DNA of 37,037 bases from an uncultured Bdellovibrionales bacterium (GTDB lineage: Bacteria > Patescibacteriota > Minisyncoccia > Moranbacterales > UBA1568): assembly GCA_964385005.1 (NCBI GenBank), contig CAYLMF010000003.1, forward strand, positions 3,521-40,557, read 5' to 3'. Under the pieces are notes generated by a model that was not told the origin of the DNA, did no database searches, and saw nothing but the letters and a program-made list of their open reading frames with translations. Shown here piece by piece: positions 7,860 through 29,650 of this stretch. Both the position numbers and the translations under genes were made by a program. Each line of letters begins with the position of its first letter. The first letter of the stretch is position 1.

Positions 7860-7916
7860 GTGATGTTGAGTTGAGCAATCACTCACAAACGTTCTTTTCA
7901 CAAACAGGGGGTCACC

Positions 7917-8174: not shown

Positions 8175-8183
8175 TTCCTAAAC

Positions 8184-8224
8184 TTGGCAGAAGTGTCTCA
8201 TCGTATTCACTTCTGCCCTCCATT
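8184..8224 (+). repeat. Copy 1 of a 41-nt perfect direct repeat containing a 10-bp hairpin
   Basis: TTGGCAGAAGTGTCTCATCGTATTCACTTCTGCCCTCCATT. GGCAGAAGTG (8186-8195) pairs with CACTTCTGCC (8208-8217) around a 12-nt loop. It is identical to 8709-8749. No T-run follows it. Confidence 0.9.
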
Positions 8225-8615
8225 AAGTCTTGAAAAATATTCAAGACTTATAGAGAAACCGTTCTTTCAAAAAGGAGTTGATTAATCGTAAAAAATGTAT
8301 ATATCCAATGATAAATTATTCATTTATCACATGGATAAACTCACATGATGCGCCTTCGTCGTATCTGTCGTCATTTGGGACGCGTACATCGTGGTCTTGA
8401 AATGGCATCCACGGTCCTCGGACTGTGGATCATACTACGAGATCTTCTCTAGTATGGGCGGGGTGTTTGAGTTTCAACCTGGCAACAGAATGGAAGCTCC
8501 AGGGAACGTGACAACCTGAACCAATAGTCACTCTGGGAAAGTATGTAAACACATACTTCTCCCCTCAACTGAATGCATTACATGGTGTAGTGCATTCTGA
8601 GAGGGAGTAACAAAA

Positions 8616-8705
8616 ATGGCAGCAGCAAACAGTGGTTCAGTTGGTCGCGGCAAACCATTCAGGGTGACCGAGGAGGAAAAACCTCCTGAGACCAAACCTC
8701 TATAA
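8616..8705 (+). CDS. Candidate micro-ORF (29 aa: MAAANSGSVGRGKPFRVTEEEKPPETKPL)
   Basis: The ATG is preceded by GGGAG (8603-8607) at 8-nt spacing. The TAA stop lies 5 nt before copy 2 of the repeated hairpin, the same geometry as the 85-aa gene and copy 1. It is too short for the ORF track and is unverified. Confidence 0.35.
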   Translation: MAAANSGSVGRGKPFRVTEEEKPPETKPL

Positions 8706-8708
8706 TCT

Positions 8709-8749
8709 TTGGCAGAAGTGTCTCATCGTATTCACTTCTGCCCTCCATT
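8709..8749 (+). repeat. Copy 2 of the 41-nt perfect direct repeat / hairpin
   Basis: It is identical to 8184-8224, with stem arms at 8711-8720 and 8733-8742. The downstream sequence ATAGAGA..CGTTCTT..AAAC..AGGGGG is also partly shared with copy 1 and with the 5' UTR of the gene starting at 7917. Confidence 0.9.
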
Positions 8750-8812
8750 GAGACTATGACTTCTGTCAGAGTTTCATAGAGATCTCGTTCTTAAACAAAC
8801 CAGGGGGATATC

Positions 8813-8995
8813 ATGCTGAAACAGCTATTTCTTTTCTCGACAGCACAAGCTGTTTTCGTTTTCCTTGTCATGTATTACATGATGGAGAAAATCGTTCCCA
8901 TTCTCACCGCTACCGGAGGATTAGCGTTCGTATCCTCCACTTCATTGAGATTGCAAGCTTCTTGTTATTTCATAGAGTATAGAAGGTTTTTCTAA
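8813..8995 (+). CDS. Hypothetical small membrane protein (60 aa, two hydrophobic segments)
   Basis: AGGGGG (8802-8807) lies 5 nt before the ATG. The sequence LFLFSTAQAVFVFLVMYYMM ... ILTATGGLAFVSS suggests two TM helices. Confidence 0.55.
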   Translation: MLKQLFLFSTAQAVFVFLVMYYMMEKIVPILTATGGLAFVSSTSLRLQASCYFIEYRRFF

Positions 8996-9039
8996 GGCGT
9001 TTATTTGCATGTGGACGCTTTAGATAAGCCTTTCTACTA

Positions 9040-9068
9040 TTGACTTATACACAAAAAGGGTGTATAAT
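9040..9068 (+). promoter_or_regulatory. Near-consensus sigma70-type promoter (P2 of the small-gene island)
   Basis: TTGACT (9040-9045), a 17-nt spacer, then TATAAT (9063-9068). The perfect inverted repeat TATACAC-N7-GTGTATA (9046-9066) overlaps the -10 element. The spacer shares CACAAAAAGGG with P1. Confidence 0.65.
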
Positions 9069-9122
9069 ATAAAGTCACAGTAGTAATTTCACTCCTGTCA
9101 CAAAATTCCAAGGGGAATATGA

Positions 9123-9326
9123 ATGCAGCGCGTTAAAAAGTTTTTTACCTGGCTTTGGAAGACCTTTTGGGGTTTTCCTGTTTGGGTCAAGATTGCCCTC
9201 ACTTTCTTCATCGCCATGAAGATCAATCCTTCGGCGGCTGTTAGCCTCCTTATGATCGGGGTTTGCCTCTGGGCCATCCGGCACATGTGCCGGAGCCTCA
9301 TCCCAAAGAAAGGCAAGAAGAAATAA
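9123..9326 (+). CDS. Hypothetical small membrane protein (67 aa, Trp-rich, two TM segments, Lys-rich tail)
   Basis: AGGGGA (9111-9116) lies 6 nt before the ATG, and the gene is downstream of P2. The sequence reads FFTWLWKTFWGFPVWVKIALTFFIAM ... VSLLMIGVCLWAI ... KKGKKK. A hairpin terminator follows it. Confidence 0.6.
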   Translation: MQRVKKFFTWLWKTFWGFPVWVKIALTFFIAMKINPSAAVSLLMIGVCLWAIRHMCRSLIPKKGKKK

Positions 9327-9351
9327 CTTGAGCCAACGTGCTCACAAAAAG

Positions 9352-9385
9352 GCCGCCCATCGCAACTGCGATTCGGGCGGCTTTT
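9352..9385. terminator. Bidirectional intrinsic terminator shared by the 67-aa gene (+) and the metalloprotease-like gene (-)
   Basis: GCCGCCC (9352-9358) pairs with GGGCGGC (9375-9381), with an inner ATCGC/GCGAT stem. AAAAA lies 5' of the hairpin and TTTT lies 3' of it. Confidence 0.7.
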
Positions 9386-15161: not shown

Positions 15162-15416
15162 ATGCGCTACACTATAGATGATATATTTTCATCTATGCAA
15201 TCACTTTTTGGACTTTTTTATACTCTTCTTTTTCTCTGCTATATTTTTGCAGCTATCTTTGTTGTTTTTCATATTCTTCGTTACTCACTTGATCGCAAAA
15301 AGGCCCTCCTTGGAGTTGCCCTCTTTCTTTCTGTAGCAGTCATTCTTCTTTTTGTGAACGCCATTCTTTTTTTTAGCCTTCCTTTTTCAGAACTTGGCAT
15401 ACCAACTTCTTTCTAA
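15162..15416 (+). CDS. Hypothetical small membrane protein (84 aa)
   Basis: It has two long hydrophobic segments (FGLFYTLLFLCYIFAAIFVVFHIL; ALLGVALFLSVAVILLFVNAILFF). It is tightly packed between ruvB and the next gene. Confidence 0.55.
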   Translation: MRYTIDDIFSSMQSLFGLFYTLLFLCYIFAAIFVVFHILRYSLDRKKALLGVALFLSVAVILLFVNAILFFSLPFSELGIPTSF

Positions 15417-15422
15417 AAAACT

Positions 15423-15944
15423 ATGCTTACTTTCCCTGGACAAAAAGATACCGAGCAAGTGCTCCATGTAGTGCATCGCCACTGGTTCAATCTGCTTTCT
15501 CACTTTTTTCTGCTCTTTGTTATCTTTATTGTTATCTTTGGGGGCATTTCTTTTTTTCTGATTCTTTTTCCAGAAGCCACTGATGCTGGCGGCAAAAAAG
15601 TTTTGGTCTTTGTACAAAACTCATTCTTTCTTTTTATGTGGCTCTATTGTTTCATGCTTTGGATCGATTACTACTTTGATGTCTGGATTATTACCGATGA
15701 AAGAATTCTCAATATAGAACAGAAGGGGTTGTTTATTCGTACTATTAGTGAAGTTCACTATTCGCGCATCCAAGATATCAGTACCAGTGTTAATGGTATT
15801 ATCCCGACCGTCCTCAACTTTGGAGATCTTTTATTACAAACAGCCTCAGAAAATGAACGTGTTAGCTTCCGCCAAGTGGGTGATCCCAATGGCCTCAAAG
15901 ATGAGATTATGCGTCTAGCCAAAAGAGATCGTCTTGGTTTGTAA
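15423..15944 (+). CDS. Membrane protein with a bacterial PH (bPH_2 / YdbS-YdbT-like) domain
   Basis: Two N-terminal TM helices are followed by ITDERILNIEQKGLFIRTISEVHYSRIQDIS...NFGDLLLQTA, which is typical of PF03703-type domains. Confidence 0.6.
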   Translation: MLTFPGQKDTEQVLHVVHRHWFNLLSHFFLLFVIFIVIFGGISFFLILFPEATDAGGKKVLVFVQNSFFLFMWLYCFMLWIDYYFDVWIITDERILNIEQKGLFIRTISEVHYSRIQDISTSVNGIIPTVLNFGDLLLQTASENERVSFRQVGDPNGLKDEIMRLAKRDRLGL

Positions 15945-16481: not shown

Positions 16482-17138
16482 ATGAACTATCACCCTCTCG
16501 TCATGTACATAGTGGAGCAAGGTGTACCACTACAAACACTTGCGCTCCTCTTAATGATTCCTGTCGTCGCTACCCTTGTAGCTTTCTTTCGTCAGGTTGT
16601 CGGTATCAAGGCTTTTGGTATCTATACTCCATCAATTATTACTTTTGCCCTACTTGCTTTTGATCCCAATGGACTCAAGTACGGTATTGCTATTTTTATA
16701 AGTATTATCTTGGTTGGCATGGCTTCTCGCTATATGCTGCGTCGCTTCCGACTCCTCTATCTTCCTCGTGTAGCTATTACTATTTCTATTGTTGCCCTAG
16801 CTATTCTTCTTATCCTCGTTATTGGTGCTCACTTCAAGCGCACTGGCCTCGCTTCTGTTTCTATCTTTCCGCTTCTCATCATGATTACTCTAGCGGAAAA
16901 GTTTGTGGCTACGCAGATTGAAAAAGGAAGCCGCGCCGCTACCTTTCTTGCTGGTGAAACTCTTCTTATCTCACTCATTGGCTACGCTCTCATTCGTTGG
17001 GACGCCTTTATGATTTTGATTCTCAATCATCCTTGGCTTATCCTTTTGACCTTTATCGTCAACTTTACTCTTGGCAAATGGTCTGGTCTTCGTATCACAG
17101 AGTATATACGCTTCCGCAAGGTTATAGCTCATTTGTAG
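16482..17138 (+). CDS. 7TM membrane protein of the 7TM_transglut type (partner of RimK-related ATP-grasp ligases)
   Basis: The protein has about 7 hydrophobic helices. IPVVATLVAFFRQVVGIKAFGIYTPSII, LLYLPRVA, SIFPLLIMITLAEKF and GKWSGLRITEYIRF match my memory of the PF14402 core. Confidence 0.6.
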   Translation: MNYHPLVMYIVEQGVPLQTLALLLMIPVVATLVAFFRQVVGIKAFGIYTPSIITFALLAFDPNGLKYGIAIFISIILVGMASRYMLRRFRLLYLPRVAITISIVALAILLILVIGAHFKRTGLASVSIFPLLIMITLAEKFVATQIEKGSRAATFLAGETLLISLIGYALIRWDAFMILILNHPWLILLTFIVNFTLGKWSGLRITEYIRFRKVIAHL

Positions 17139-17150
17139 TTCTCCAAAAAT

Positions 17151-18545
17151 ATGTTTGAACTCTTTCTCAAAAGTCAAAAGCTTCTTGGTATGAACGCGCG
17201 TAATCTTGATTATGTGCGTCCACTGAATCGCAAAAAGGCTATGCGTATTGCGGATGACAAACTTCTCTGTAAGCGTATTCTGCGTAAACAAAATCTTTCT
17301 GTGCCACAGCTTCTCGGAAGAATTCGAAGCTATGAAGAATTAGAGACATTTGACTGGTCTACCCTCCCTGGAGGATTTGCTCTCAAACCTAATCGTGGTT
17401 TTGGTGGAGGTGGTATCTTGGTTGTCTATGCGCGTAAGCGTGGCCGTGATGACGCCTGGGTAAAGGCCGACGGTTCACTCATTACCATAGAAGATCTCAA
17501 AACGCACATCAAAAACATTCTCGATGGATCTTTTTCATTGAGTAACCTTCCCGATACTGCTTTTTTTGAGGAACGCCTCACTCTTCTGAAACTTTTCAAG
17601 CCTTATAGTTACAAGGGTATCCCTGATATTCGCGTTATCGTCTTTAATTCTGTCCCTGTTATGGCCATGCTTCGCCTGCCTACGCGTGCTTCAGACGGCA
17701 AGGCTAACCTCCAGCAAGGCGCTATCGGCGTTGGTATCGATCTTGCTACCGGCACTACCACAAGCGCTATTATGGGAAAGGGTAATATCATCGAACATGT
17801 CCCCGATACCAGTCTTGTACTTTCTGGTATCAAGCTTCCGTACTGGAAAGAGACCCTACGTATCGCTGTAGAAGCTCAAAAAATTTCTGGCCTTGGTTTT
17901 CTCGGAGCCGATATCGCTCTTGATCGTGAACGTGGACCTGTGATTATAGAACTCAATGCTCGTCCAGGACTTTCTATTCAGCTTGCCAATCTCTCAGGTC
18001 TTCGCGAACGCCTTGATCGCGTGAAGGGTATCAAAATCAAAACCACTGACCGAGGCATTCGCGTGGGCATGAATCTTTTTGGTGGAGAAATCGAAGATGA
18101 AATCGAAGAAATATCAGGTAAAAAAATGATCGGCGCTATTGAAAAAGTAACTTTCTACGGAAAAGACGACAAAGAGGTTACCCTCGAAGCAAAGATAGAT
18201 ACTGGGGCTGACTCATCCTCTATTGACTTTGAGGTAGCAGAAGCCCTTGGATTTGGAGAAACAGTACGTGCCTACAAGGCCCTTGAAGCTGATTGGGAAA
18301 AACTTAAAAACCTCAGCAAAGAAGAGCGTTGGGAACTTTTTGAAAATATTCCTGATGCTGTCAGTACCGTCCCAATTCACTCTTCACACGGTACCACTTA
18401 TCGAGTCAAAATTCAGCTTGAGATGCTTCTTGATGGTACTCGCACACCTATCCGACCAACCCTTATTGATCGCTCTCGTCTTGATTACAAATCAATTATC
18501 GGTAGAAAAAATCTTCTTAAATTCCTCGTAGACGTATCAAAATAA
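17151..18545 (+). CDS. Alpha-L-glutamate-ligase-related ATP-grasp enzyme fused to a C-terminal retropepsin-like (RimB / Zn_protease PF05618-type) domain
   Basis: The N-terminus LGMNARNLDYVRPLNRKKAMRIADDKLLCKRIL...FALKPNRGFGGGGILVV is typical of TIGR02291/ATPgrasp_ST. The C-terminal 130 aa contain LEAKIDTGADSSSID, a D-T-G aspartyl protease signature in the same context as RimK-associated proteases. Confidence 0.7.
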   Translation: MFELFLKSQKLLGMNARNLDYVRPLNRKKAMRIADDKLLCKRILRKQNLSVPQLLGRIRSYEELETFDWSTLPGGFALKPNRGFGGGGILVVYARKRGRDDAWVKADGSLITIEDLKTHIKNILDGSFSLSNLPDTAFFEERLTLLKLFKPYSYKGIPDIRVIVFNSVPVMAMLRLPTRASDGKANLQQGAIGVGIDLATGTTTSAIMGKGNIIEHVPDTSLVLSGIKLPYWKETLRIAVEAQKISGLGFLGADIALDRERGPVIIELNARPGLSIQLANLSGLRERLDRVKGIKIKTTDRGIRVGMNLFGGEIEDEIEEISGKKMIGAIEKVTFYGKDDKEVTLEAKIDTGADSSSIDFEVAEALGFGETVRAYKALEADWEKLKNLSKEERWELFENIPDAVSTVPIHSSHGTTYRVKIQLEMLLDGTRTPIRPTLIDRSRLDYKSIIGRKNLLKFLVDVSK

Positions 18546-19516
18546 TGACCCTTTCGAATAGCCACTACCAAAAAATTCTCAATACCTACACAAAAAATGC
18601 AACTCTTATTTCTCCGGAAAAAGAGTTTCATTTTTTTCTCAGAGCCTACAAGGCATCTGGCAATTCACGCTATCGAGAAGTGCTTTCTCGAGGTATCAAA
18701 GAAAATAAACTCCCGCGACTAAAGAAAGAAATTGTAGCTATCGCGAACTCTTCTTCTTTAAAAAAACCAGAGATTTCGCCCAAAAGGCCCGGCATCAATA
18801 ATGAAAGAAATCGTCGAAGGCAACTTCTTTATAGCAAACACCCTCTCTTACCTCTTTTTCATGACCTTACCAATAGCCTCTTCTTTTTTCAAAAACTCGG
18901 ACTAGATCAGGCTTTTCCAGAGCTATTTAATCAGGGCATCACTCACCTAAAAAATCACCTCTCAATAGCTCCTCTTCTTCTGACCGAAGAAACATTTCTT
19001 ATTGATAGTTCCTATGGAGCTAACACTCTTTTTCATCTACGTTTTCTTGGCGTTGTTGATGTCACCAAAGAGTATCTCGAACTCGCAAAAAAGACTTTTG
19101 TTGAGGGCTTTTATGCCACCCCTGAGATACTTAGTGACGAAGATCTCTACTCGGCCTTTTATACACTCACCCACATTGTTATTGCGGCTTCAGACTTTTA
19201 TCGCCAAACTCCCCATGAGAATTTTTCCTGGATTTTTGAATACCTTGAAAAACACCGTTCCCTCGCTCTAGAAAAGCTCTCACTTGATATACAGTTTGAA
19301 ATTGCCCTTTGCTTTAAAATTATGAATTTTCAAGATCGCTTCTCTATTGCATATCAGGAATATCTAACACACATACAAACAGTTTTTTTTCTAGATACTC
19401 AGGCTCCCCTGGAGTATCTCGAGAAAAAGGAGCATACTGCTAGTATCGCTCTTCTACTTTTTTCTCCATCTTCTACTTTTTTCCCTGACCCAGATCTCTC
19501 AAAAGAGATTTTATAG
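18545..19516 (+). CDS. Hypothetical helical protein (323 aa), translationally coupled to the ATP-grasp fusion
   Basis: The start overlaps the upstream stop (TAATG at 18543-18547). There is no TM segment and no motif I recognise. Confidence 0.6.
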   Translation: MTLSNSHYQKILNTYTKNATLISPEKEFHFFLRAYKASGNSRYREVLSRGIKENKLPRLKKEIVAIANSSSLKKPEISPKRPGINNERNRRRQLLYSKHPLLPLFHDLTNSLFFFQKLGLDQAFPELFNQGITHLKNHLSIAPLLLTEETFLIDSSYGANTLFHLRFLGVVDVTKEYLELAKKTFVEGFYATPEILSDEDLYSAFYTLTHIVIAASDFYRQTPHENFSWIFEYLEKHRSLALEKLSLDIQFEIALCFKIMNFQDRFSIAYQEYLTHIQTVFFLDTQAPLEYLEKKEHTASIALLLFSPSSTFFPDPDLSKEIL

Positions 19517-19554
19517 ATTTTATTTTTTCTTATTCAAGTTAACTCAAACCCGCT

Positions 19555-20538
19555 ATGGATTTTCAGCAGTATATCGAAAAGGTAAAACACGGCGCTTACA
19601 AATCTTTTCTCAAAAAAACTCTTGCCCTTGGACTTTCTGTGGAACTTATTTTGCATGAAAAAATTCCTGTTGTAAAAATAACTCATGGAGAGAAAACTCT
19701 TTTTTGCTATGGCAAGGTTCCGCTTTTTCGTAGCATGTGTAATCTCACAAAAAACAAATCTATCACTAAGTTTGTTCTAGAGTCGGTAGGTATTCGAACT
19801 CCAAAAGGTATTGTGACACATTCTTTTGAAGATGGTATTCGTGAGGTGCGTGAAAAAAATCTTACCTACCCTCTTATAAGCAAACCTGTTGATGGTTCAC
19901 TCGCCAAAGGCGTCACCTGGAATATCACTTCTGAAGCTGGCTTACAGGAGGCTATCGAGCATGCATTGGGCGCTTATGGCTATCGAGAAGATATCAAGAT
20001 TCTTGTTGAAGAAATGTTTGTTGGCAATGAATACCGTGTTCTTGTTTTTAATGGCAAGATCCTTTCTTGTGTAGAAAAAATACCAGCAGGTATTACGGGT
20101 GATGGTGAACAATCTATTCAAGATCTTATACATTCTTTTAACAAAACTCGTCGTCATGGCTTTGAGATTAAACTTGATACCGTTGCCAAGGAGACACTCT
20201 CTAAAGCTGGTTACACCCTAAAAACAATTCTCCCAAAAGATTCTTTCTTTAAATTGCGTAATAATCTCAATATGTCTGATGGTGGCCGCTGTATTGAACG
20301 AACAGCCACTATGGATAAAGAGCTTCAAAAAACCTGCGTAAAGGCCGTGGAATCTCTTGGCCTAACCTATGGCGGACTCGACCTTATCACAAACAACATC
20401 TCTCTCCCTGGAGCCCCATACGTTATTCTTGAGGTCAATCCAAACCCTTACTACAATATGCACGAAAAACCTCTTGTAGAGGGCGATGGTATTGATGTAT
20501 CTCTCATACTTCTAAAGTATCTTTTTCCCTCTTTGTAA
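19555..20538 (+). CDS. Stand-alone ATP-grasp ligase resembling the N-terminal ATP-grasp module of cyanophycin synthetase (CphA) / RimK
   Basis: YPLISKPVDGSLAKGV, EEMFVGNEYRVLVFNGKI, GDGEQSIQDLI, NLNMSDGG and VILEVNPNPYYNMH follow the CphA-N / ATP-grasp pattern. Confidence 0.65.
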   Translation: MDFQQYIEKVKHGAYKSFLKKTLALGLSVELILHEKIPVVKITHGEKTLFCYGKVPLFRSMCNLTKNKSITKFVLESVGIRTPKGIVTHSFEDGIREVREKNLTYPLISKPVDGSLAKGVTWNITSEAGLQEAIEHALGAYGYREDIKILVEEMFVGNEYRVLVFNGKILSCVEKIPAGITGDGEQSIQDLIHSFNKTRRHGFEIKLDTVAKETLSKAGYTLKTILPKDSFFKLRNNLNMSDGGRCIERTATMDKELQKTCVKAVESLGLTYGGLDLITNNISLPGAPYVILEVNPNPYYNMHEKPLVEGDGIDVSLILLKYLFPSL

Positions 20539-20603: not shown

Positions 20604-23186
20604 ATGGCTTTATTTAAAAGAAAACGTCGAGTTCATTTCAGCGAAGAGTCTACCCCATCAAAGAACTCTTTCTCTTTCAAGCTTCCTTCTTGGGTTGAAA
20701 GACATCAGAAGCTTCTTTTCCGCATCTTTTTGGGTCTTGTTGGGACTTTTGTGCTTGTTTTAGTCGGGACTTTCCTCTATTTTGCTAAGGACCTTCCTGA
20801 GGCAGGCAATATCAATAAACGCTTTGTTGCTGAATCAACAAAAATCTATGACCGGACTGGACAGCACCTACTCTACGAACTTCATGGTGAAGAAAAGCGC
20901 ACCGTTATTCCTTTTGACCAAATTCCTGAGATTGTCCGTTTTGCCACTATTTCCCTTGAAGATCAGGACTTCTATCATCATTTTGGCCTAAAACCAAGCG
21001 CTATTCTTCGTGCGGCCCTCAAAGACATCATTACTCTTGATGCGGCTCAAGGAGGTTCTACTATCACCCAGCAGTTCGTCAAAAATTCTCTCCTTTCCAA
21101 TGAACGTACAGTTACTCGAAAAATAAAAGAGGCTATTCTTTCTATTGAAATAGAAACACTGTTTACCAAAGATGAGATTCTGGCCATGTACCTGAATGAA
21201 ATTCCTTATGGTCAAAATGCCTATGGCATCGAGGCTGCTGCTCGTACCTATTTCGGCAAATCTGCCAAGGAACTCACTCTCGATGAAGCGGCCCTTCTTG
21301 CCTCTTTGCCTCGTGGTACAGCCTACTATTCCCCTTATGGAAGCCGTCCTGAGCGCCTAACCGCCCGCAAAGAGTATGCTCTCAAACAAATGGCTAAGCT
21401 TGGCTATATCACCGATGAACAAGCAGGGCAAGCTATAGAAACTGATACTCTCAAGAAAATCCTTCCTCAGAAAGATATTATTGCCGCCCCTCACTTTGTC
21501 ATGTATATCAAGGACTATCTTCAGGAAAAATATGGCGATCAATCCATAGAGCAAGGTGGTTATAAGGTAATCACCACTCTTGATTGGGACAAGCAACAAG
21601 CAGCCGAGGAGGCCGTCAGAGAGGGTTCAAAAAACAATGGTACTTGGAGAGCTTCCAATGCTGCTCTTGTAGCTATGGACCCAAAGAATGGTCAGATTTT
21701 AGCTATGGTTGGCTCTAAGGATTATTTTGATGCTTCAATAGATGGTCAAGTCAACGTCGCTATCCGCAACAGACAGCCAGGTTCTTCTTTTAAGCCCTAT
21801 GTCTACCTTACAGCGTTTACCAAGGGCTATCTGCCAGAAACCATGCTCTATGACACAGAGACAGAGTTTGATACAAATGACGGAAAGGTTTATAAACCCC
21901 TCAACTACAACGGGGAGTTCAATGGTCCAATTAGCATGAAGAGGGCCCTCGGAGGATCTCTCAACGTTCCTGCGGTAAAAACCCTCTATCTAGTCGGTGT
22001 CAAAGATTCTATTAAACTTGCTAAAGACCTTGGTATCCAGGGACTCAATGACCCTGATCGTGTAGGACTCTCTCTCGTTTTGGGTGGCGGTGAAGTACAA
22101 CTCCTTGACCATGTAAATGCCTACAGCACACTAGCTACTGGTGGTGTACGTCACGAAAAAACCTCTATTCTAAAGATTGAGGATGCTAGTGGTAACATCC
22201 TTGAAGAGTACCAAGAAAAGCCTGGTGAGCGTGTTGTGGAGGAAAAGTATGTGGCTATGCTTGATTCTATTCTTTCAACTAATGAGAATCGTGCCTGGGT
22301 ATTTGGGGAAAATTCTCCTCTGGCATTCAATTCTCGACCAGTAGCTGCTAAGACTGGTACCACAAATGAATTTCGTGATGGCTGGACGATGGGCTACACT
22401 CCAAACCTTGCAGTAGGTGTTTGGGCTGGAAACAATGACAACAGTCCTATGAAAGAAGGGGCTGATGGTGTCAATGTGGCGGCTCCTATTTGGAGAAAGT
22501 TTATGGACAAAGCACTCTCTAATTACTCTATCGAAAAGTTTCCCGAGTACAAACCAGAAGATGAGATTGGTGATGGTGATAATAAAACCAACAAACCCAT
22601 GCTTTCTGGTGAGCTTGAAGAGGAAAAAGATCTTAAAGTTTGTGAAATTCCAGGTAAAGATACGTATTGTCTAGCCAATAAGTACTGCCCTGATGATAAA
22701 GCAAAGAAAAAAGATTTCGTGAGTGTGCATGACATCCTCCATTATGTTGACCGTCGTGATCCTCGTGGACCAATTCCAGATAAACCAGAGAATGATGGTC
22801 AATATAAAAACTGGGAAGAAAGTGTTAAAAAATGGTACGAGAAGTCTGATAATAAGGACAAGGGGTCATCTGGAAATGTACCGACAAAAGACTGTGAGAA
22901 GGATGATTTCGATAACTTTGAGCCAGATCTAGAGCTCGATGTTCCTTCATCTACAGATTCCTCTACCTTAAAGCTTAGTGTCAAAACAGATGCTCCGTAT
23001 GGGATAAAAAAGGTTACCTACTCAGTAGATGGAGATACAGTAAAGAGCGTGAGTAGCAAACCATATTCTACAGAATACGATATTCCTAACTCAAAAAATA
23101 ATCGCACTATTACTATCAAAGCTGAACTTGAAGATGATAATGGCAATACCACTACTGACAGTAAAGATGTCAGTGTTAGCTTCTAA
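20604..23186 (+). CDS. Class A penicillin-binding protein (glycosyltransferase GT51 + transpeptidase) with a long C-terminal extension
   Basis: It has an N-terminal TM anchor. GT51 motifs are present (SLEDQDFYHHFG, GGSTITQQ), as are transpeptidase motifs (GSSFKP = SxxK, SLN, KTGT). About 220 extra C-terminal residues include a charged linker and an Ig-like beta-rich end. Confidence 0.92.
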   Translation: MALFKRKRRVHFSEESTPSKNSFSFKLPSWVERHQKLLFRIFLGLVGTFVLVLVGTFLYFAKDLPEAGNINKRFVAESTKIYDRTGQHLLYELHGEEKRTVIPFDQIPEIVRFATISLEDQDFYHHFGLKPSAILRAALKDIITLDAAQGGSTITQQFVKNSLLSNERTVTRKIKEAILSIEIETLFTKDEILAMYLNEIPYGQNAYGIEAAARTYFGKSAKELTLDEAALLASLPRGTAYYSPYGSRPERLTARKEYALKQMAKLGYITDEQAGQAIETDTLKKILPQKDIIAAPHFVMYIKDYLQEKYGDQSIEQGGYKVITTLDWDKQQAAEEAVREGSKNNGTWRASNAALVAMDPKNGQILAMVGSKDYFDASIDGQVNVAIRNRQPGSSFKPYVYLTAFTKGYLPETMLYDTETEFDTNDGKVYKPLNYNGEFNGPISMKRALGGSLNVPAVKTLYLVGVKDSIKLAKDLGIQGLNDPDRVGLSLVLGGGEVQLLDHVNAYSTLATGGVRHEKTSILKIEDASGNILEEYQEKPGERVVEEKYVAMLDSILSTNENRAWVFGENSPLAFNSRPVAAKTGTTNEFRDGWTMGYTPNLAVGVWAGNNDNSPMKEGADGVNVAAPIWRKFMDKALSNYSIEKFPEYKPEDEIGDGDNKTNKPMLSGELEEEKDLKVCEIPGKDTYCLANKYCPDDKAKKKDFVSVHDILHYVDRRDPRGPIPDKPENDGQYKNWEESVKKWYEKSDNKDKGSSGNVPTKDCEKDDFDNFEPDLELDVPSSTDSSTLKLSVKTDAPYGIKKVTYSVDGDTVKSVSSKPYSTEYDIPNSKNNRTITIKAELEDDNGNTTTDSKDVSVSF

Positions 23187-24635: not shown

Positions 24636-24876
24636 AGATATTTTTTTAAAAAGAATAGTTATTATATATTAGGGCTGTGGATAACTGGATAAGTCTCTTT
24701 TTTGTTTATACGTAAGCTTTTTTAAGTGAATAAGAACTTATTTTATAAAGTAGATAGTGAGGCAGAATGAGTTAAAAATATATTAGGCAACAAGAGAGAG
24801 TGTTTGTGTTTCTTTTTATCCGAGCGCTCTCCAGGGGTTATCCTCACTATTTCTGGCCTTATACAGAGTTATACAC
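24636..24876. other. Candidate oriC segment in the dnaA-dnaN spacer (DnaA boxes plus AT-rich stretch)
   Basis: A perfect DnaA box lies at 24676-24684 (TGTGGATAA = TTATCCACA on the minus strand). Degenerate boxes follow it: CTGGATAAG directly adjacent, then TTATCCGAG (about 24816) and TTATCCTCA (about 24838). A very AT-rich tract at 24636-24670 lies next to the perfect box. Confidence 0.6.
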
Positions 24877-26319
24877 CTAAGAAATGTAATAGAGACGTTC
24901 TTTTATCTGACTGAGCTCCTCTTTTATTTTAGGAGAAGTTTCTTTTTCTTTATTTATTTTTTCAAAAGCATGGAGAATAGTGGTGTGATCTCTTCCTCCA
25001 AGCATGTCACCAATAGTAGAAAATGGAGTAGAGAGTTCTTGTCTCAAGATGTACATAAGAACCTGTCGTGGATGAGAGATTTCTTTTTTGCGACCCTTTT
25101 TGATAAGATCCTCGTGTTCAACGGAATAGTATTCACAAATAGTACTAAAAACACTCTCAGTACTGATGTTTTTGCGATTTTTTTCTAAAAGTTCAATAAG
25201 AATCTTCTCTGTATTAGCAAGATTGGCTGGTATTTTACGAAAATCACAGTAGGCAATTACTCGATTAAGGGCTCCTTCAAGCTCGCGAACATTCTGGTTG
25301 ATATTTTGAGCGATAAAACGGAGAGCATCCTCATCAATAGAAAGACCCTTCTCTTGAACCTTTGAGCTAAGGATAGCAATACGGGTTTCAAGGCTCGGTT
25401 GGCTAATGTCCGTGATCATACCACCTTCAAAACGTGAACGAAGACGCTCTTCAAGAGTTCCGATAGCTTTTGGTGGACGATCGCTAGAGATAACAATCTG
25501 CTTATTTATCTGATACAAGGCGTTAAAAATATGAAAAAATTCATTCTGAGTCTTTTCTCGGCCGGAAAGGAACTGGACATCATCGATAATTAGGAGGTCC
25601 ATCTGTTGATAGTACTCTTTAAAGATATCAATCTTCTGGTTTTTAATTGAATCAACAAGTTCTGTGGTAAAGCGTTCAGAAGTAATGTATTTGATGCGTT
25701 TTTCTGGATGGTTACGCATAACCTCGTTGCCAATAGACTGGAGGAGGTGGGTTTTTCCGAGGCCGACACCACCATAGATAAACAGTGGATTATAAAGCAT
25801 ACCAAGATTCTGAGAGACAGCGTGACAGGCAGCATGAGCAAGCTCGTTGTTTTCTGCTACGATGTAGTTTTCAAATGTATAGCGAGAATTCAAGCTGCTT
25901 TCATGGAAAACTTCCTTTTGGAGGGAGACAGAAGTGGCCTCTGATGAGAAAGAGGGTTTTTCTATGAGCTTTTTACGTACAAAGCTATTGGTAGTATCGT
26001 GGCTTTCCCCGCGCGGAATAGCAGCATCTATAGAACGGCTAACCGGCTTTGGTTGCTGGCTGGTGTATGGATCAGATAGGGAGATAGTACAGCGAATACT
26101 TTGAATAGTGGGGTTAAGGGTCCGGAGGGCTTTCAGAATATGGGTGTTGTACTTGTTTTCTAGCCACTCCTTCGCAAAACCATTAGGAACACCTATAAGC
26201 GCTTGATTGCCGCTTATCTCTAAAAGATTCGTGTTTTTGAACCAGGTAATAAAGTTGGCTTTCGAAAGAGAAAGTTCAATTTGGCCAAGGACAGCCTTCC
26301 AGAGTTCATCGTTAGTCAT
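24877..26319 (-). CDS. dnaA: Chromosomal replication initiator DnaA
   Basis: It has an AAA+ Walker A motif (GGVGLGKTHLL), a Walker B motif (LLIIDDVQFL), sensor motifs, and a C-terminal DNA-binding domain (PRQVLMYILRQELSTPFSTIGDMLGGRDHTTILHA). Confidence 0.95.
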   Translation of the reverse strand: MTNDELWKAVLGQIELSLSKANFITWFKNTNLLEISGNQALIGVPNGFAKEWLENKYNTHILKALRTLNPTIQSIRCTISLSDPYTSQQPKPVSRSIDAAIPRGESHDTTNSFVRKKLIEKPSFSSEATSVSLQKEVFHESSLNSRYTFENYIVAENNELAHAACHAVSQNLGMLYNPLFIYGGVGLGKTHLLQSIGNEVMRNHPEKRIKYITSERFTTELVDSIKNQKIDIFKEYYQQMDLLIIDDVQFLSGREKTQNEFFHIFNALYQINKQIVISSDRPPKAIGTLEERLRSRFEGGMITDISQPSLETRIAILSSKVQEKGLSIDEDALRFIAQNINQNVRELEGALNRVIAYCDFRKIPANLANTEKILIELLEKNRKNISTESVFSTICEYYSVEHEDLIKKGRKKEISHPRQVLMYILRQELSTPFSTIGDMLGGRDHTTILHAFEKINKEKETSPKIKEELSQIKERLYYIS

Positions 26320-26354
26320 AGAGGATTTCGTATCAGGTGACTAAAATTATAGCA

Positions 26355-26414
26355 TGTGGATAACTGAAATACGAGCCTTTTTAAAGCAATAATTGGTGCA
26401 CAACCTGTGGATAA
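26355..26414. promoter_or_regulatory. Two perfect DnaA boxes upstream of dnaA (autoregulation and/or second oriC half)
   Basis: TGTGGATAA occurs at 26355-26363 and again at 26406-26414, in the same orientation, inside the divergent dnaA / rpmH spacer. Confidence 0.7.
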
Positions 26415-26435
26415 GTAAAATAAGACACAGGGTAG

Positions 26436-26463
26436 TTGACTTTTCTGGCTTTTCTGCTACAAT
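26436..26463 (+). promoter_or_regulatory. Candidate promoter of the rpmH-rnpA-yidC-jag operon
   Basis: TTGACT (26436-26441), a 16-nt spacer, then TACAAT (26458-26463). It lies 34 nt upstream of the rpmH ATG. Confidence 0.55.
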
Positions 26464-26497
26464 CTAGAGACATTTTGCACTAGCAACCATTTCATAT

Positions 26498-26635
26498 ATG
26501 AAAAGAACATATCAGCCAAAAACTCGCAAAAGAGCTCGCCGTCATGGCTTTCTTAAACGCGCCAGCACTCCAGGAGGACGCAATGTCTTGCTTTCACGTC
26601 GCCGCAAGGGACGCTCAAAGCTTACAGCTGTTTAG
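26498..26635 (+). CDS. rpmH: 50S ribosomal protein L34
   Basis: It is not in the ORF track because it is under 60 aa. Hand translation gives [45 protein letters not shown], the canonical L34 sequence. It occupies the canonical position between dnaA and rnpA. Confidence 0.93.
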
Positions 26636-26643
26636 GAGAATCT

Positions 26644-26973
26644 ATGCTCAAAAAATCCTTTAGATTAAGGAGAAAAGAAGATTTTACAAGGGTTTTTCGT
26701 TCCGGAAAGCCTCTTTTTTTTAAGCCTTTTGGCTGTAAAATCATTCAAAATGATGCCGGTAATGATCGTTTCGGTTTTTCATTTAGCAAAAAGCACCTAA
26801 AAAAAGCAGTTGGACGCAATCGTTTACGCCGCAGAATAAGTGCTCTTTATCTAAAAGAAGAGTATAATTTTAAAGGTAAGGATATTGTTTTTTTTACTAC
26901 TGAACCCATTCAGAAGATTGAAAAGACGAGTTTAGAAGCCTTTCTTAAAAAAATAAATGATCTTGTTAGCTAA
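26644..26973 (+). CDS. rnpA: Ribonuclease P protein component
   Basis: It is a small basic protein directly after rpmH. It has an RNR-like basic motif (NRLRRR), and AGGAG lies 6 nt before the ATG. Confidence 0.85.
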   Translation: MLKKSFRLRRKEDFTRVFRSGKPLFFKPFGCKIIQNDAGNDRFGFSFSKKHLKKAVGRNRLRRRISALYLKEEYNFKGKDIVFFTTEPIQKIEKTSLEAFLKKINDLVS

Positions 26974-28195: not shown

Positions 28196-29650
28196 ATGCC
28201 AGTAGCACGTAAGATTGCTTACAATGTTGTTTTTAATTCCTTGTTTAAGGTTTTTTCAACAGTAGTCCTCTCCCTATACTCTATCCGCCTTATTACGGAG
28301 TATCTAGGCCCAGATGGTTTCGGGAAGTATGCTACTATTCTCGCCTTCTTTGCTTTTTTCTCAGCTTTGGTTGATTTAGGGCTTGCGCAAGTGACTGTGC
28401 GTGAGATTTCTCGTGAAGGAGCGGATGAAAAAAGTATTTTTGGTAAAATATTCACCCTTCGGCTTCTTTCTTCTTCGGCCATTATTATCGTAGCTCCGTT
28501 AGTGCTTTTCTTTTTTAATTATGAAAAAGACCTTAAGATAGGAATCCTTTTTGCTGCTGTGGCAGTATTTTTTTCTTCAGCCTCACTGCTTTTAAATGGA
28601 ATATTTCAAAAAAACCTTGCCATGGATAGAGTGGCCATGGTGGAGTTTTTTGGAAAATTTTTACAGGTAGTTTTGGTGACTCTTATTGTGAAGAATGATC
28701 TGGGCTTTTTGGCTATAGCGAGCACTCTTTTGGCCTCACTTTCTTTTAATGCCATTATTGTTTTCTTCTTAAGCCGCTCTTTTGTGCGCTTTGGACTTGA
28801 TTGGGATGTGACATATTGGAAGAACTTTCTCCGAGAGTCCTCCCCCTTGGCAGCGACGGCAATGATTACCTTTGCCTATTTTAAGCTCGATACTATTATA
28901 CTTTCTGTCTTAAAGACAAGCGCTGATGTGGGTATTTATAATGTGGCCTACAAGATTATGGAAAACCTTATATTTTTTCCAGCCATGTTGGCCGGACTGA
29001 TTCTCCCCCTTCTTTCACGTACCCTTTTTACCGATAGAGAACTTTTTGAAGATATTGTAGATAAAACATTTAAAGTCTTTCTTCTTATTGTGTTCCCTTT
29101 GGTAGTGGGTACATGGGTGTTGGCACCAGAAATTATTACCATTATAAGTGGCAGCGGTTTTGGAGAATCTGCCCGAGTACTGCGTATCCTGGCTTTTGCT
29201 TTGGGCTGTATCTTTTTTGGTCACTACTTCACGATGCTTCTCATAGTCAGTAATGCTCAGAAAAAACTGATGAAAGCCTTGATAATAGCGGCCATTTTTA
29301 ATATCGGTATCAATTTTATTTTCATCCCAAAGTACTCGTATATTGGAGCAGCCTTTGTTTCTTTGGCCACGGAGTTTCTAGTAGTAATCCTTTTGAGCGC
29401 ACTAGCTTTTCGAGAAATTCGCTTCCGCCCTTCATTTAAGCCGGTTTTCCCTATTTCGGTAGCAACGCTCTTGATGGGAGGGGCGATGTATATTTTCGAT
29501 CATTTTTCTTTTATCGTTGCTGGCGTTGCTGGCGTAGTGGCCTATATGGTGGGACTTTGGCTCACAAAGGTGGTGACCTATAGAGAGATTCGTATGATTT
29601 TTTCTAATAAGGACACAGAGCCCATCCTGACAGACGGACCAATATCATAG
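28196..29650 (+). CDS. Polysaccharide / oligosaccharide flippase (MOP superfamily, Wzx-like)
   Basis: The 484-aa protein has about 12-14 TM helices. Its N-terminus (KIAYNVVFNSLFKVFSTVVLSLYSIRLITEYLGPDGFGKY) is typical of the Polysacc_synt family. Confidence 0.8.
   Translation: MPVARKIAYNVVFNSLFKVFSTVVLSLYSIRLITEYLGPDGFGKYATILAFFAFFSALVDLGLAQVTVREISREGADEKSIFGKIFTLRLLSSSAIIIVAPLVLFFFNYEKDLKIGILFAAVAVFFSSASLLLNGIFQKNLAMDRVAMVEFFGKFLQVVLVTLIVKNDLGFLAIASTLLASLSFNAIIVFFLSRSFVRFGLDWDVTYWKNFLRESSPLAATAMITFAYFKLDTIILSVLKTSADVGIYNVAYKIMENLIFFPAMLAGLILPLLSRTLFTDRELFEDIVDKTFKVFLLIVFPLVVGTWVLAPEIITIISGSGFGESARVLRILAFALGCIFFGHYFTMLLIVSNAQKKLMKALIIAAIFNIGINFIFIPKYSYIGAAFVSLATEFLVVILLSALAFREIRFRPSFKPVFPISVATLLMGGAMYIFDHFSFIVAGVAGVVAYMVGLWLTKVVTYREIRMIFSNKDTEPILTDGPIS

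What the first reader, a model, noticed from the sequence alone, without database searches (positions are those of the whole stretch)
16482..20538. Four-gene peptide-ligase cassette: 7TM protein, ATP-grasp-retropepsin fusion, unknown protein and a CphA-like ATP-grasp
Four tightly spaced co-oriented genes make up the cassette:
1. A 7TM protein of the type that accompanies RimK-related ligases.
2. A TIGR02291-like 'alpha-L-glutamate ligase-related' ATP-grasp fused to a D-T-G retropepsin-like domain.
3. A translationally coupled 323-aa helical orphan.
4. A second ATP-grasp resembling the N-terminal module of cyanophycin synthetase.

The trio of ATP-grasp, RimB-like protease and 7TM protein was predicted by comparative genomics to form a peptide-synthesis or protein-tagging system. 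That prediction comes from the Iyer/Aravind-style amidoligase analyses. As far as I know it has no defined substrate or product.

Here it occurs in a minimal CPR-like genome, with an extra ligase, directly upstream of the only class A PBP in the window. Possible roles include membrane-associated synthesis and trimming of a poly-amino-acid or peptide tag, or amino-acid addition to envelope or peptidoglycan precursors. ATP-grasp D-Asp ligases that modify peptidoglycan offer a precedent for the second idea. All of this is inference.
Basis: partly seen in the sequence, partly recalled or inferred. Interest (0 to 1): 0.75.

Follow-up and report, generated by a model that had tools for sequence, protein, structure and literature searches.

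The report
Membrane-linked peptide ligase–protease cassette in Moranbacteria
A tiny-genome (CPR, Moranbacteria) bacterium carries a stripped-down, extremely conserved version of the recently named Rlo/Rim system, in which a glutamate-type peptide ligase is fused to its trimming protease and paired with a 7-helix membrane protein; next to it lies a variable slot of extra ligases, always just upstream of the cell-wall synthase PBP1A.

Summary
The four genes are real, sit at the stated coordinates and are under purifying selection. Three of the four family assignments hold:
- g1 is a PF14402 7TM protein.
- g2 is a PF14397/TIGR02291 ATP-grasp fused to a PF05618 D-T-G retropepsin.
- g4 is an ATP-grasp like the G domain of cyanophycin synthetase.

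The "orphan" g3 is not an orphan. It belongs to DUF3541 (PF12060).

The cassette is a new variant of a system that now has a name. The P. aeruginosa rloABC operon (mBio 2025) and RimK/RimB (JBC 2025) make and cleave poly-α-glutamate. Here the RloC-type ligase and the RloA/RimB-type protease are one cytoplasmic polypeptide. The RloB-type membrane protein has lost its outer domain.

Comparison of about 30 related loci shows that the four genes are not a fixed unit. The invariant core is g1+g2, which show 0 and 2 amino-acid changes against a strain with dS about 0.85. PBP1A always follows the core. Between them is a plastic slot holding 0–4 accessory genes: at least three kinds of ATP-grasp, with or without DUF3541.

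DUF3541 is fused to a g4-like ligase in other organisms, so g3 and g4 probably work together. The substrate and product remain unknown. Verdict: a new variant of a known kind, of moderate interest.

The parts
16482..17138 (+). g1: stand-alone 7TM membrane protein. It is the RloB-type 7TM module without the extracytoplasmic transglutaminase-like domain.
   Evidence: PF14402 scores 100 bits and NF052267 RloB positions 307-506/508 are matched. There are seven hydrophobic segments. It shows 0/218 amino-acid changes against L005 at dS 0.87. E139 and several Gly/Pro residues are invariant from Moranbacteria to Saprospiraceae.
17070..17135 (+). Conserved cytoplasmic C-terminal tail of g1: LGKWSGLRITEYIRFRKVIAHL, with the motif G-K-W-x-G-x-R-x-x-E-x-x-R-F. 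It is a candidate docking site for the ligase.
   Evidence: G198, G202, R204, E207, R210 and F211 are invariant in 20 sequences from two phyla. The docking role is inference.
17151..18545 (+). g2: a single polypeptide made of an RloC/TIGR02291-type ATP-grasp ligase, an acidic linker and an RloA/RimB-type retropepsin.
   Evidence: Searches give the family matches. The 120 best-scoring listed 90%-identity clusters are 65-100% identical; almost all are ~464 aa (a few truncated) and 114 of them carry both domains in the precomputed Pfam column. It shows 2/464 amino-acid changes against L005. It has no signal peptide or TM segment.
17151..18035 (+). ATP-grasp ligase domain of g2 (residues 1-295).
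   Evidence: PF14397 scores 239 bits and TIGR02291 scores 298 bits. The top Foldseek hits are RimK, the poly-α-L-glutamate synthetase (5zct, E 9e-8), then ArgX/LysX. K79, the G83-G88 loop, E140, R161, K184, D254, E267, N269 and R271 are invariant.
18081..18122 (+). Conserved acidic linker GGEIEDEIEEISGK (residues 311-324) between the ligase and the protease.
   Evidence: It is conserved in all fused orthologues. A role as pseudo-substrate or autoprocessing site is inference only.
18129..18542 (+). Retropepsin-like aspartic protease domain of g2 (residues 327-464). The catalytic D350-T-G-A lies at 18198-18209.
   Evidence: PF05618 scores 29.3 bits. It aligns to PDB 9g59 with DTGA in register. 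K348, R418 and R441 match the poly-Glu-binding residues K46, R114 and R137 of RloA. AF2 pLDDT is 85-95 in this domain, and there is a Foldseek hit to Lpg0085/DUF785.
18545..19516 (+). g3: cytoplasmic DUF3541 protein. It is all-α, an optional accessory gene and the fastest-evolving gene of the locus.
   Evidence: PF12060 scores 63 bits. The AF2 model has pLDDT 88 and no significant PDB neighbour. H29, R33, Y206, T209, H210, D248, E252 and H297 are invariant in 45 family members. It shows 93/323 amino-acid changes against L005 and dN/dS 0.18. It is fused to a g4-like ligase in P0148 and P0231.
19555..20538 (+). g4: stand-alone ATP-grasp ligase of the CphA-G-domain / GshAB-C-terminal / Ngg clade. 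It is an optional accessory gene.
   Evidence: TIGR02068 positions 209-473 are matched at E 7e-52. The best PDB hit is CphA1 7lg5, E 2e-35. K68, K110, E152, R161, G182-D-G184, D276, E293 and N295 are invariant.
20604..23186 (+). Class A PBP (PBP1A). It is the conserved downstream neighbour of the cassette and is not shown to be part of it.
   Evidence: Transgly + Transpeptidase + Big_7. It directly follows the cassette in every Moranbacteria-type locus examined, down to 46% PBP identity.

Best explanation
This is a streamlined, cytoplasm-facing variant of the Rlo/Rim type of ATP-grasp and retropepsin system, carried in the core genome of a Moranbacteria (CPR) bacterium.

The ATP-grasp half of g2 most likely adds L-glutamate (or another acidic amino acid) stepwise to a C-terminal carboxylate. 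This would build an α-linked oligo- or poly-glutamate chain on a still unknown acceptor, as RimK does.

The retropepsin half of g2 is dimeric and has a basic substrate groove. It would trim that chain and probably stimulate the ligase, as RimB does for RimK.

g1 is the 7TM core of RloB. It would hold the enzyme at the membrane through its conserved cytoplasmic tail, and it either passes the product outward or couples synthesis to an envelope signal.

g4 works with g3 (DUF3541). It is one of several interchangeable tailoring ligases that occupy a variable slot. It would add a further residue to the acceptor or the chain, for priming, capping or branching.

The likely target process is cell-envelope or osmotic homeostasis.

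Shown: family membership, intact catalytic residues, the fusion architecture, cytoplasmic location of g2-g4, conservation and selection patterns, and the g3-g4 fusion in other organisms.

Inferred: glutamate as the substrate, the acceptor, the role of the 7TM protein, the order of action, and the link to PBP1A.
For: Family and catalytic evidence:
- The closest structural match of the g2 ligase is RimK, then ArgX/LysX. All of these ligate Glu-type residues to a C-terminal carboxylate.
- The ATP-grasp catalytic set is invariant from Moranbacteria to Saprospiraceae.
- The DTGA motif and the three basic residues that bind poly-Glu in RloA are conserved.

Published biochemistry and genetics:
- RloA and RimB cleave poly-Glu. 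Loss of RloB or RloC suppresses loss of the proteases. RimB stimulates RimK, and a natural RimB-RimK hybrid is active (PMC12239564; PMC11957791).

Comparative evidence:
- 7TM plus fusion is invariant in every Moranbacteria-type locus with enough flank. These are L001, L003, L005-L010, L022, L024-L026, L039 and L041.
- g1 and g2 are the most constrained genes of the locus. dN/dS is 0.005, and there are 0 and 2 amino-acid changes at dS about 0.85.
- The slot between the fusion and PBP1A holds 0-4 accessory genes drawn from at least three ATP-grasp families plus DUF3541.
- DUF3541 is fused N-terminally to a g4-like ligase in P0148 and P0231, the same order as g3 then g4.
- In 10 of 15 genome loci and most metagenome loci with enough flank, DUF3541 lies beside a 7TM + PF14397 pair. 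This includes Bacteroidota.
Against: - No product or acceptor is known for any RloC-type ligase, even in Pseudomonas. Glutamate specificity is extrapolated from RimK, which is a distant relative (TIGR00768 scores only 44 bits).
- In Pseudomonas the protease is periplasmic and RloB has an outer domain. Here both features are absent, so the topology of the pathway may differ fundamentally.
- The retropepsin match is weak by sequence (29 bits; 15-23 bits to the RloA/RimB equivalog models).
- The AF2 model of g2 is only moderate (pLDDT 70).
- PBP1A adjacency sits inside a generally syntenic RuvC…DnaA block. In L041 hairpins that look like terminators separate the core from PBP1A.
Confidence: 0.55

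Rival explanations
1. Peptidoglycan or lipid-II tailoring. The ATP-grasp ligases (g2, g4 and the other slot occupants) add amino acids to the stem peptide or build a cross-bridge on a cytoplasmic-face precursor. This would resemble D-Asp ligase or the pseudomurein peptide ligases. The protease edits the result, and PBP1A polymerises the modified precursor.
For: - PBP1A directly follows the cassette in every Moranbacteria-type locus. This holds even where the downstream DciA/DnaN/DnaA flank is not detected (L008, L010), and down to 46% PBP identity.
- The number and kind of ligases in the slot varies by lineage, as expected for variable peptide chemistry.
- Pseudomonas rlo mutants have cell-shape, hypo-osmotic and β-lactam phenotypes.
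- DUF3541 is fused to a PF00144 β-lactamase/DD-peptidase-family domain in P0190 and P0201.
Against: - RuvC is just as constantly adjacent on the other side, so the adjacency may be plain synteny.
- Hairpins that look like terminators separate the core from PBP1A in L041.
- None of the ligases matches Ddl or Mur-type models well. Ddl models score at most E 1e-11, against 7e-52 for CphA.
- The proteobacterial and Bacteroidota versions are not next to PBPs in the loci examined.
Confidence: 0.15
2. RimK/RimB-like tagging of a cytoplasmic protein, such as ribosomal protein S6, with a glutamate tail. The 7TM protein would be only a regulator.
For: RimK is the top structural hit. The protease is cytoplasmic, as RimB is, and it is fused to the ligase, as in RimBK.
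Against: - The ligase belongs to the TIGR02291/PF14397 clade (298 bits), not to RimK proper (TIGR00768 scores 44 bits against a cutoff of 143).
- The obligatory 7TM partner is the hallmark of Rlo, not Rim.
- The domain order is the reverse of RimBK.
- No S6 gene or Glu-tailed acceptor is present in the window.
Confidence: 0.1
3. Synthesis of a small osmolyte or storage peptide, such as an NAGGN-like dipeptide or a cyanophycin-like polymer. g4 would build the backbone and g2 would add side residues.
For: g4's best matches are CphA, GshAB and the NAGGN synthetase Ngg. The Rlo system is linked to osmotic stress.
Against: - g4 lacks the CphA N and M domains (it aligns only to positions 209-473 of 862) and the Ngg GNAT domain.
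- g4 is dispensable in L041, L039, L025 and L027, while the core persists.
- No cyanophycinase or AsnO-like partner was seen.
Confidence: 0.06
4. The genes are unrelated neighbours, or a mobile or defence island, and do not share a function.
For: The accessory slot is plastic and g3 evolves fast.
Against: - The cassette is core-genome, 4-6 kb from dnaA and oriC. Gene order is conserved over g2 identities of 52-100%.
- There are no PADLOC hits, and PHROGs gives only a generic ATP-grasp match.
- The same domains occur as fusions: ligase-protease here, and DUF3541-ligase elsewhere.
Confidence: 0.02

Closest known systems
RloABC operon of Pseudomonas aeruginosa (Lormand et al., mBio 2025, PMC12239564)
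   Same: It has the same three modules:
- a TIGR02291/PF14397 ATP-grasp (RloC);
- a PF14402 7TM protein (RloB);
- a PF05618 D-T-G retropepsin (RloA), with the same basic residues that bind poly-Glu.

The three are genetically one pathway, linked to the envelope and to osmotic tolerance.
   Different: - Here the protease is fused to the C-terminus of the ligase and has no signal peptide, so it is cytoplasmic. RloA is secreted.
- The 7TM protein lacks the periplasmic inactive-transglutaminase domain.
- The gene order is B-C~A instead of A-B-C.
- Extra ligases and DUF3541 are attached, and PBP1A is adjacent.
- The host is a CPR bacterium, whereas RloB was reported as 96% proteobacterial.
RimK/RimB and the natural RimBK hybrid (Little et al., JBC 2025, PMC11957791)
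   Same: A cytoplasmic ATP-grasp α-L-glutamate ligase is paired with, and in the hybrid fused to, a retropepsin. The retropepsin cleaves poly-Glu and stimulates the ligase.
   Different: - The ligase is not RimK proper (TIGR00768 scores 44 bits against a cutoff of 143).
- The domain order is ligase then protease, the reverse of RimBK, so this is an independent fusion.
- A 7TM partner is obligatory here and absent from Rim.
Cyanophycin synthetase CphA1 G domain, the GshAB C-terminal domain, and NAGGN synthetase Ngg
   Same: g4 shares the ATP-grasp core of this clade, including the G-D-G insertion region. Members ligate an amino acid to the α-carboxylate of a peptide.
   Different: g4 is the bare ATP-grasp domain. 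It has no CphA N or M domains, no GshA half and no GNAT domain. Its scores are far below the equivalog cutoffs (177 against 850).
DUF3541 (PF12060), uncharacterised
   Same: g3 is a clear member (63 bits) and keeps the invariant H, R, Y, T, H, D, E, H set.
   Different: g3 belongs to a small cytoplasmic subgroup, with only 5 clusters of close relatives among 5.8 billion proteins. Other members are secreted, or are fused to ATP-grasp or PF00144 domains.

Membership tests
Rlo system (rloABC) | RloC: cytoplasmic ATP-grasp of the TIGR02291 / PF14397 type. | tested here: met
   PF14397 scores 239 bits (cutoff 31). TIGR02291 scores 298 bits, just below the 314 cutoff. The catalytic residues are invariant.
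Rlo system (rloABC) | RloB: PF14402 7TM module. | tested here: met
   PF14402 scores 100 bits, and RloB model positions 307-506/508 are matched.
Rlo system (rloABC) | RloB: periplasmic inactive transglutaminase domain fused to the 7TM module. | tested here: not met
   g1 is 218 aa and starts at the first TM segment. RuvC ends 21 nt upstream. Relatives carry a PKD domain (L010) or a Transglut_core domain (L012) instead.
Rlo system (rloABC) | RloA: retropepsin-like D-T-G protease with basic poly-Glu-binding residues. | tested here: met
   PF05618 scores 29.3 bits (cutoff 27). DTGA aligns to 9g59. K348, R418 and R441 are conserved.
Rlo system (rloABC) | RloA is a separate, secreted protein with a signal peptide. 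| tested here: not met
   The protease is the C-terminal domain of the cytoplasmic ligase. No hydrophobic N-terminus was found.
Rlo system (rloABC) | Role in hypo-osmotic tolerance, β-lactam tolerance and cell shape. | not testable with these tools
   This needs genetics. Only the conserved PBP1A adjacency points the same way.
RimK / RimBK | Ligase reaches the RimK family model (TIGR00768 / PRK10446). | tested here: not met
   TIGR00768 scores 44.5 bits against a cutoff of 143. PRK10446 scores 21 against 331.
RimK / RimBK | Hybrid with RimB N-terminal to RimK. | tested here: not met
   The order here is ligase (residues 1-295) then protease (residues 327-464).
Cyanophycin synthetase (CphA1) | Three-domain enzyme: N domain, ATP-grasp G domain and Mur-ligase-like M domain. 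| tested here: not met
   g4 covers only model positions 209-473 of 862. It scores 177 bits against a cutoff of 850.
ATP-grasp superfamily (g4) | ATP-binding lysines and the Mg-binding D/E/N triad. | tested here: met
   K68, K110, E152, R161, D276, E293 and N295 are invariant in 17 sequences.
DUF3541 (PF12060) | Reaches the Pfam gathering score and keeps the family-invariant residues. | tested here: met
   It scores 63 bits against 28.2. H29, R33, Y206, T209, H210, D248, E252 and H297 are invariant.

The most novel reading that the evidence does not exclude
The invariant 7TM + ligase~protease core and its lineage-variable set of tailoring ligases (g4 with DUF3541, and others) build and edit a variable peptide on a membrane-proximal envelope precursor that PBP1A then uses. 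This would be a previously unknown, ATP-grasp-based cell-wall or envelope peptide modification pathway in CPR bacteria. DUF3541 would be a new enzyme family that partners CphA-like ligases. If true, it would also reveal the missing substrate class of the Rlo system in pathogens.
Probability: 0.18. Interest if true: 0.8.

Novelty: new variant of a known kind. Interest (0 to 1): 0.55.

Why it matters
The Rlo system was named only in 2025. It controls osmotic survival, β-lactam tolerance, biofilm and cell shape in P. aeruginosa, but its substrate is unknown. It was thought to be essentially proteobacterial.

This locus shows a minimal form of the same machinery in the core genome of ultra-reduced CPR bacteria:
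- The outer domain of the membrane protein is absent.
- The ligase and protease are one chain.
- The 7TM and fusion proteins are more constrained than DnaA or RuvB.
- PBP1A always follows.

Three consequences follow:
1. The cassette is a simpler system in which to find the product.
2. It is independent comparative support for an envelope link.
3. It gives the first functional context for DUF3541, as a partner of CphA-like ATP-grasp ligases.

Tried and rejected
- Searching again with an alignment of the five g3 relatives found nothing new. The close subgroup really is tiny. Only the all-against-all profile search reached the wider DUF3541 family.
- Foldseek of the good g3 model against the PDB gave no hit with E<1e-3. 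It returned only weak solenoid or (α/α)-toroid-like resemblances (A2ML1 TED, C3d, transcobalamin; TM ≤0.37). A profile search of the PDB gave only noise. No fold-based function is claimed.
The metagenome scan with the two DUF3541-ligase fusion proteins found nothing, so their genomic context is unknown.
- The Iyer/Aravind 2009 paper (PMC3268129) is not held. What I say about it rests on my own knowledge and on the Pfam family descriptions.
- No paper in the library mentions DUF3541, PF14402 or TIGR02291 by those names. None links this cassette to CPR bacteria.
- The defence-island and phage readings were rejected. PADLOC gave no hit and PHROGs gave only a generic ATP-grasp match.
- No riboswitch, other Rfam RNA or tRNA is present in the window. 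The consensus scan listed no convincing + strand terminator between the four genes.
- Model coordinates are not exposed, so I could not test whether the invariant DUF3541 residues cluster in space.
- Complexes (g1-g2, g3-g4) could not be predicted with the single-chain tool.

Full report
**1. Observation**

| Gene | Coordinates | Length |
|---|---|---|
| g1 | 16482-17138 | 218 aa |
| g2 | 17151-18545 | 464 aa |
| g3 | 18545-19516 | 323 aa |
| g4 | 19555-20538 | 327 aa |

The spacing is 12 nt, a 1-nt TAATG overlap between g2 and g3, and 38 nt. A class A PBP follows at 20604-23186. The consensus scan listed no convincing + strand terminator between the genes.

The surrounding genes are housekeeping. 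Upstream are PolA, Fpg, TsaE, a PilB-type ATPase, RuvB and RuvC. Downstream are PBP1A, DciA, DnaN, DnaA, YidC and a polysaccharide cluster. Perfect DnaA boxes lie at 24676, 26355 and 26406, and the cumulative GC-skew minimum lies nearby, at about 21-22 kb. The cassette therefore lies about 4-6 kb from the replication origin, in the core genome.

**2. Family assignments**

*g1.* It matches PF14402 (7TM_transglut) at 100 bits. It matches only the C-terminal 7TM part (307-506/508) of NCBI's RloB model. It has seven hydrophobic segments and no room for an N-terminal domain, because RuvC ends 21 nt upstream.

*g2, ligase half.* Residues 17-292 match PF14397 at 239 bits. TIGR02291 scores 298 bits, just under its 314 cutoff.

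*g2, protease half.* Residues 327-463 match PF05618 (29.3 bits against 27). They match the RloA1-3/RimB models only weakly. Against the PDB this half aligns to 9g59, a bacterial retropepsin-like PF05618 protein that I take (not verified) to be one of the RloA-type structures of that paper. K-x-D-T-G-A is in register, and the ligase half aligns to RimK.

*g3.* It is not an orphan. It matches PF12060 (DUF3541) at 63 bits.

*g4.* It aligns to positions 209-473 of the cyanophycin synthetase model (E 7e-52). It also aligns to the GshAB C-terminal half and to the NAGGN synthetase. Its best PDB relatives are CphA1 structures (E 2e-35). This is the ATP-grasp G domain only.

None of g2, g3 or g4 has a signal peptide or TM segment.

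**3. Catalytic competence**

*g2 ligase.* I aligned g2 with 13 orthologues, including stand-alone RloC-like proteins of Saprospiraceae. The ATP-grasp set is invariant: K79, the G83-G88 loop, E140, R161, K184, D254, E267, N269 and R271.

*g2 protease.* In 35 fused orthologues D350, G352 and A353 are invariant, as are R418 and R441. K348 and T351 are nearly invariant. By the alignment, K348, R418 and R441 correspond to RloA K46, R114 and R137. Those residues bind poly-glutamate, and mutating them abolishes RloA function.

*g4.* K68, K110, E152, R161, G182-D-G184, D276, E293 and N295 are invariant.

*g2 structure.* The AF2 model is moderate overall (pLDDT 70) but good for the protease domain (85-95). 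Foldseek ranks RimK, the poly-α-L-glutamate synthetase, first (E 9e-8). ArgX/LysX follow, and Lpg0085 (DUF785/PF05618) matches the C-terminal domain.

**4. What is already known**

Lormand et al. (mBio 2025, PMC12239564) named the P. aeruginosa operon rloABC. They showed the following:
- RloA is a secreted retropepsin that cleaves stretches of at least 8 glutamates in vitro.
- Loss of the three RloA paralogues causes hypo-osmotic lethality, β-lactam sensitivity, and biofilm and cell-shape defects.
- Deleting rloB (inactive transglutaminase + 7TM) or rloC (ATP-grasp) suppresses these defects.
- The in vivo substrate is unknown, and RloB was reported as 96% proteobacterial.

Little et al. (JBC 2025, PMC11957791) showed that RimB stimulates RimK's ATPase activity and its poly-α-L-glutamate synthesis. 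They also showed that natural RimBK hybrids, with the protease N-terminal to the ligase, are active.

**5. How the window differs**

- The ligase is of the RloC type, not RimK (TIGR00768 scores 44 bits against a cutoff of 143).
- The protease is fused to the ligase's C-terminus. This is the reverse of RimBK, so it is an independent fusion.
- The protease is therefore cytoplasmic, whereas RloA is periplasmic.
- The RloB-type protein is reduced to its 7TM core.

A conserved acidic linker, GGEIEDEIEEISGK, joins the two halves of g2. It might act as a pseudo-substrate or as an autoprocessing site. That is inference.

**6. Conservation**

The 120 best 90%-identity clusters of g2 homologues are 65-100% identical. 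Almost all are about 464 aa, and nearly all carry both domains. Where they carry names, these are Candidatus Moranbacteria or Patescibacteria.

I examined loci found through g2 homologues and through DUF3541. The block RuvC, 7TM, ligase~protease, [slot], PBP1A recurs in every Moranbacteria-type locus with enough flank. It holds down to 52% g2 and 46% PBP identity. It also holds where the DciA/DnaN/DnaA flank is not detected downstream (L008, L010).

The slot between the fusion and PBP1A varies by lineage.

| Slot content | Loci |
|---|---|
| Empty, with terminator-like hairpins | L041 |
| g4 only | L001, L003 |
| DUF3541 + g4 | window, L005, L006, L007, L009, L010, L024 |
| Third ATP-grasp + DUF3541 + g4 | L008, L026 |
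| DUF3541 + two g4-like + a third type | L022 |
| Two other ATP-grasps | L039 |
| DUF3541 only | L025, L027 |

So the four genes are not one fixed unit. There is an invariant two-gene core and a plastic accessory slot.

**7. Selection**

The JGI contig L005 is 85.6% identical in DNA over 17 kb, with dS of about 0.5-1.8 across the genes (0.81-0.87 for g1 and g2). The table compares the window with it.

| Gene | Amino-acid differences | dN/dS |
|---|---|---|
| g1 | 0/218 | 0.005 |
| g2 | 2/464 | 0.005 |
| RuvB | 3/337 | 0.008 |
| DnaA | 8/480 | 0.018 |
| PBP1A | 34/860 | 0.019 |
| g4 | 23/327 | 0.043 |
| g3 | 93/323 | 0.176 |

The core is as constrained as anything in the locus. g3 is the fastest-evolving gene but is still under purifying selection. 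dS near 1 is close to saturation, so the ratios are rough. The ranking is robust.

**8. DUF3541**

The family is small. It has 309 representatives at E<1e-3 among 1.84 billion proteins. It has no literature in the held library and no solved or structurally similar PDB entry. The AF2 model is confident (pLDDT 88) and all-α.

Eight polar residues are invariant across 45 members: H29, R33, Y206, T209, H210, D248, E252 and H297. This suggests an enzyme rather than a scaffold, but that is inference.

Two lines tie DUF3541 to this system:
1. In 10 of 15 genome loci, and in most metagenome loci with enough flank, it lies next to a PF14402 + PF14397 pair. This includes Saprospiraceae (Bacteroidota). 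There RloB is full length, with a transglutaminase core, and DUF3541 carries a signal peptide.
2. In P0148 (803 aa) and P0231 (970 aa), DUF3541 is fused N-terminally to a g4-like ligase. g4 against P0148 gives 30% identity over 271 aa, E 7e-31. This is the same order as g3 then g4.

Hence g3 most likely works with g4. Other members are fused to a PF00144 β-lactamase/DD-peptidase-family domain. About a quarter have signal peptides.

**9. The 7TM protein**

Across 20 sequences from two phyla, the invariant positions are several Gly and Pro residues, E139 at the end of the fifth hydrophobic segment, and the C-terminal cytoplasmic motif G-K-W-x-G-x-R-x-x-E-x-x-R-F.

The extracytoplasmic N-terminal domain is interchangeable. 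It is a transglutaminase core in L012, a PKD domain in L010, and absent here. This fits an N-out, C-in topology. The conserved tail would then face the ligase, and the docking role is inference.

**10. Mechanism, rivals and verdict**

Most likely (about 0.55), this is an Rlo/Rim-type machine:
- The g2 ligase builds an α-linked Glu-rich chain on an unknown acceptor at the membrane.
- The fused retropepsin trims the chain and stimulates the ligase.
- The 7TM protein anchors or couples the enzyme, and possibly exports the product.
- g4 with g3 is one of several interchangeable tailoring ligases.

Rivals:
- Direct peptidoglycan-precursor tailoring (0.15). Constant PBP1A adjacency, variable ligase content and the Pseudomonas phenotypes support it. 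Equally constant RuvC adjacency and poor Ddl/Mur similarity weaken it.
- S6-type protein tagging (0.1).
- Osmolyte or storage peptide synthesis (0.06).
- Unrelated neighbours or a mobile or defence island (0.02). PADLOC gave no hit and PHROGs only a generic ATP-grasp match.

This is a new variant of a known kind. Its interest lies in four things: the phyletic extension to CPR bacteria, the minimal fused architecture, the extreme constraint on the core, and the first context for DUF3541.

Caveats:
- ORFs in the related loci were called with simple rules.
- L010 is labelled "uncultured Gammaproteobacteria" but looks like the Moranbacteria-type loci, so the bin label may be wrong.

Noticed in passing
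window 24636-24876 and 26320-26650: Perfect DnaA boxes (TTATCCACA) lie at 24676, 26355 and 26406, flanking dnaA (24877-26319, minus strand). The cumulative GC-skew minimum lies nearby, at about 21-22 kb. The window therefore probably contains oriC, and the cassette lies about 4-6 kb from it.
   Followed up: partly
window 7750-9385: This 1.6-kb stretch has no ORF of 110 aa or more, only short ORFs (an 85-aa ORF at 7917-8174 is the longest). It has no Rfam or tRNA hit. It may hold small genes or non-coding sequence.
   Followed up: no
window 18081-18122 (g2 residues 311-324): An acidic linker, GGEIEDEIEEISGK, sits between the ligase and the poly-Glu-type protease. It is conserved in all fused orthologues. 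It could be a pseudo-substrate or a self-cleavage site, by analogy with retroviral protease autoprocessing.
   Followed up: partly
L012:6761-7885 and L017:9139-10257: In Saprospiraceae and Balneolaceae the secreted DUF3541 gene sits next to a secreted protein of about 373 aa with no Pfam match. The two copies align end to end (18% identity, pairwise E 2e-5) and look like outer-membrane β-barrels. This may be a second, periplasmic context for DUF3541.
   Followed up: partly
L010 (CAZMEQ010000009.1), also L022, L024, L025: These loci form a sister clade of the cassette in which the 7TM protein carries an N-terminal PKD domain of about 300 aa (shown by Pfam for L010; in the others only the ~900-nt gap before the 7TM hit suggests it). 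Of the four, L010 is the only one with a taxon label, 'uncultured Gammaproteobacteria'. Its RuvC, cassette and PBP1A resemble the Moranbacteria-type loci (45-54% identity), so the bin label may be wrong.
   Followed up: partly
window 15162-15944: Two small membrane proteins lie between RuvB and RuvC: an 84-aa protein with no family, and a 173-aa bacterial PH-domain protein (bPH_2). They are syntenic in all close relatives. Against L005 the two PH-domain proteins differ at only 3 of 173 residues.
   Followed up: no
window 28196-33723: On the far side of the origin lies a cell-surface polysaccharide cluster: a Wzx-type flippase, a GT2 glycosyltransferase and two Wzy_C/O-antigen-ligase-like proteins. 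It was not seen in the related loci examined, which mostly do not extend that far, so no link to the cassette is suggested.
   Followed up: no
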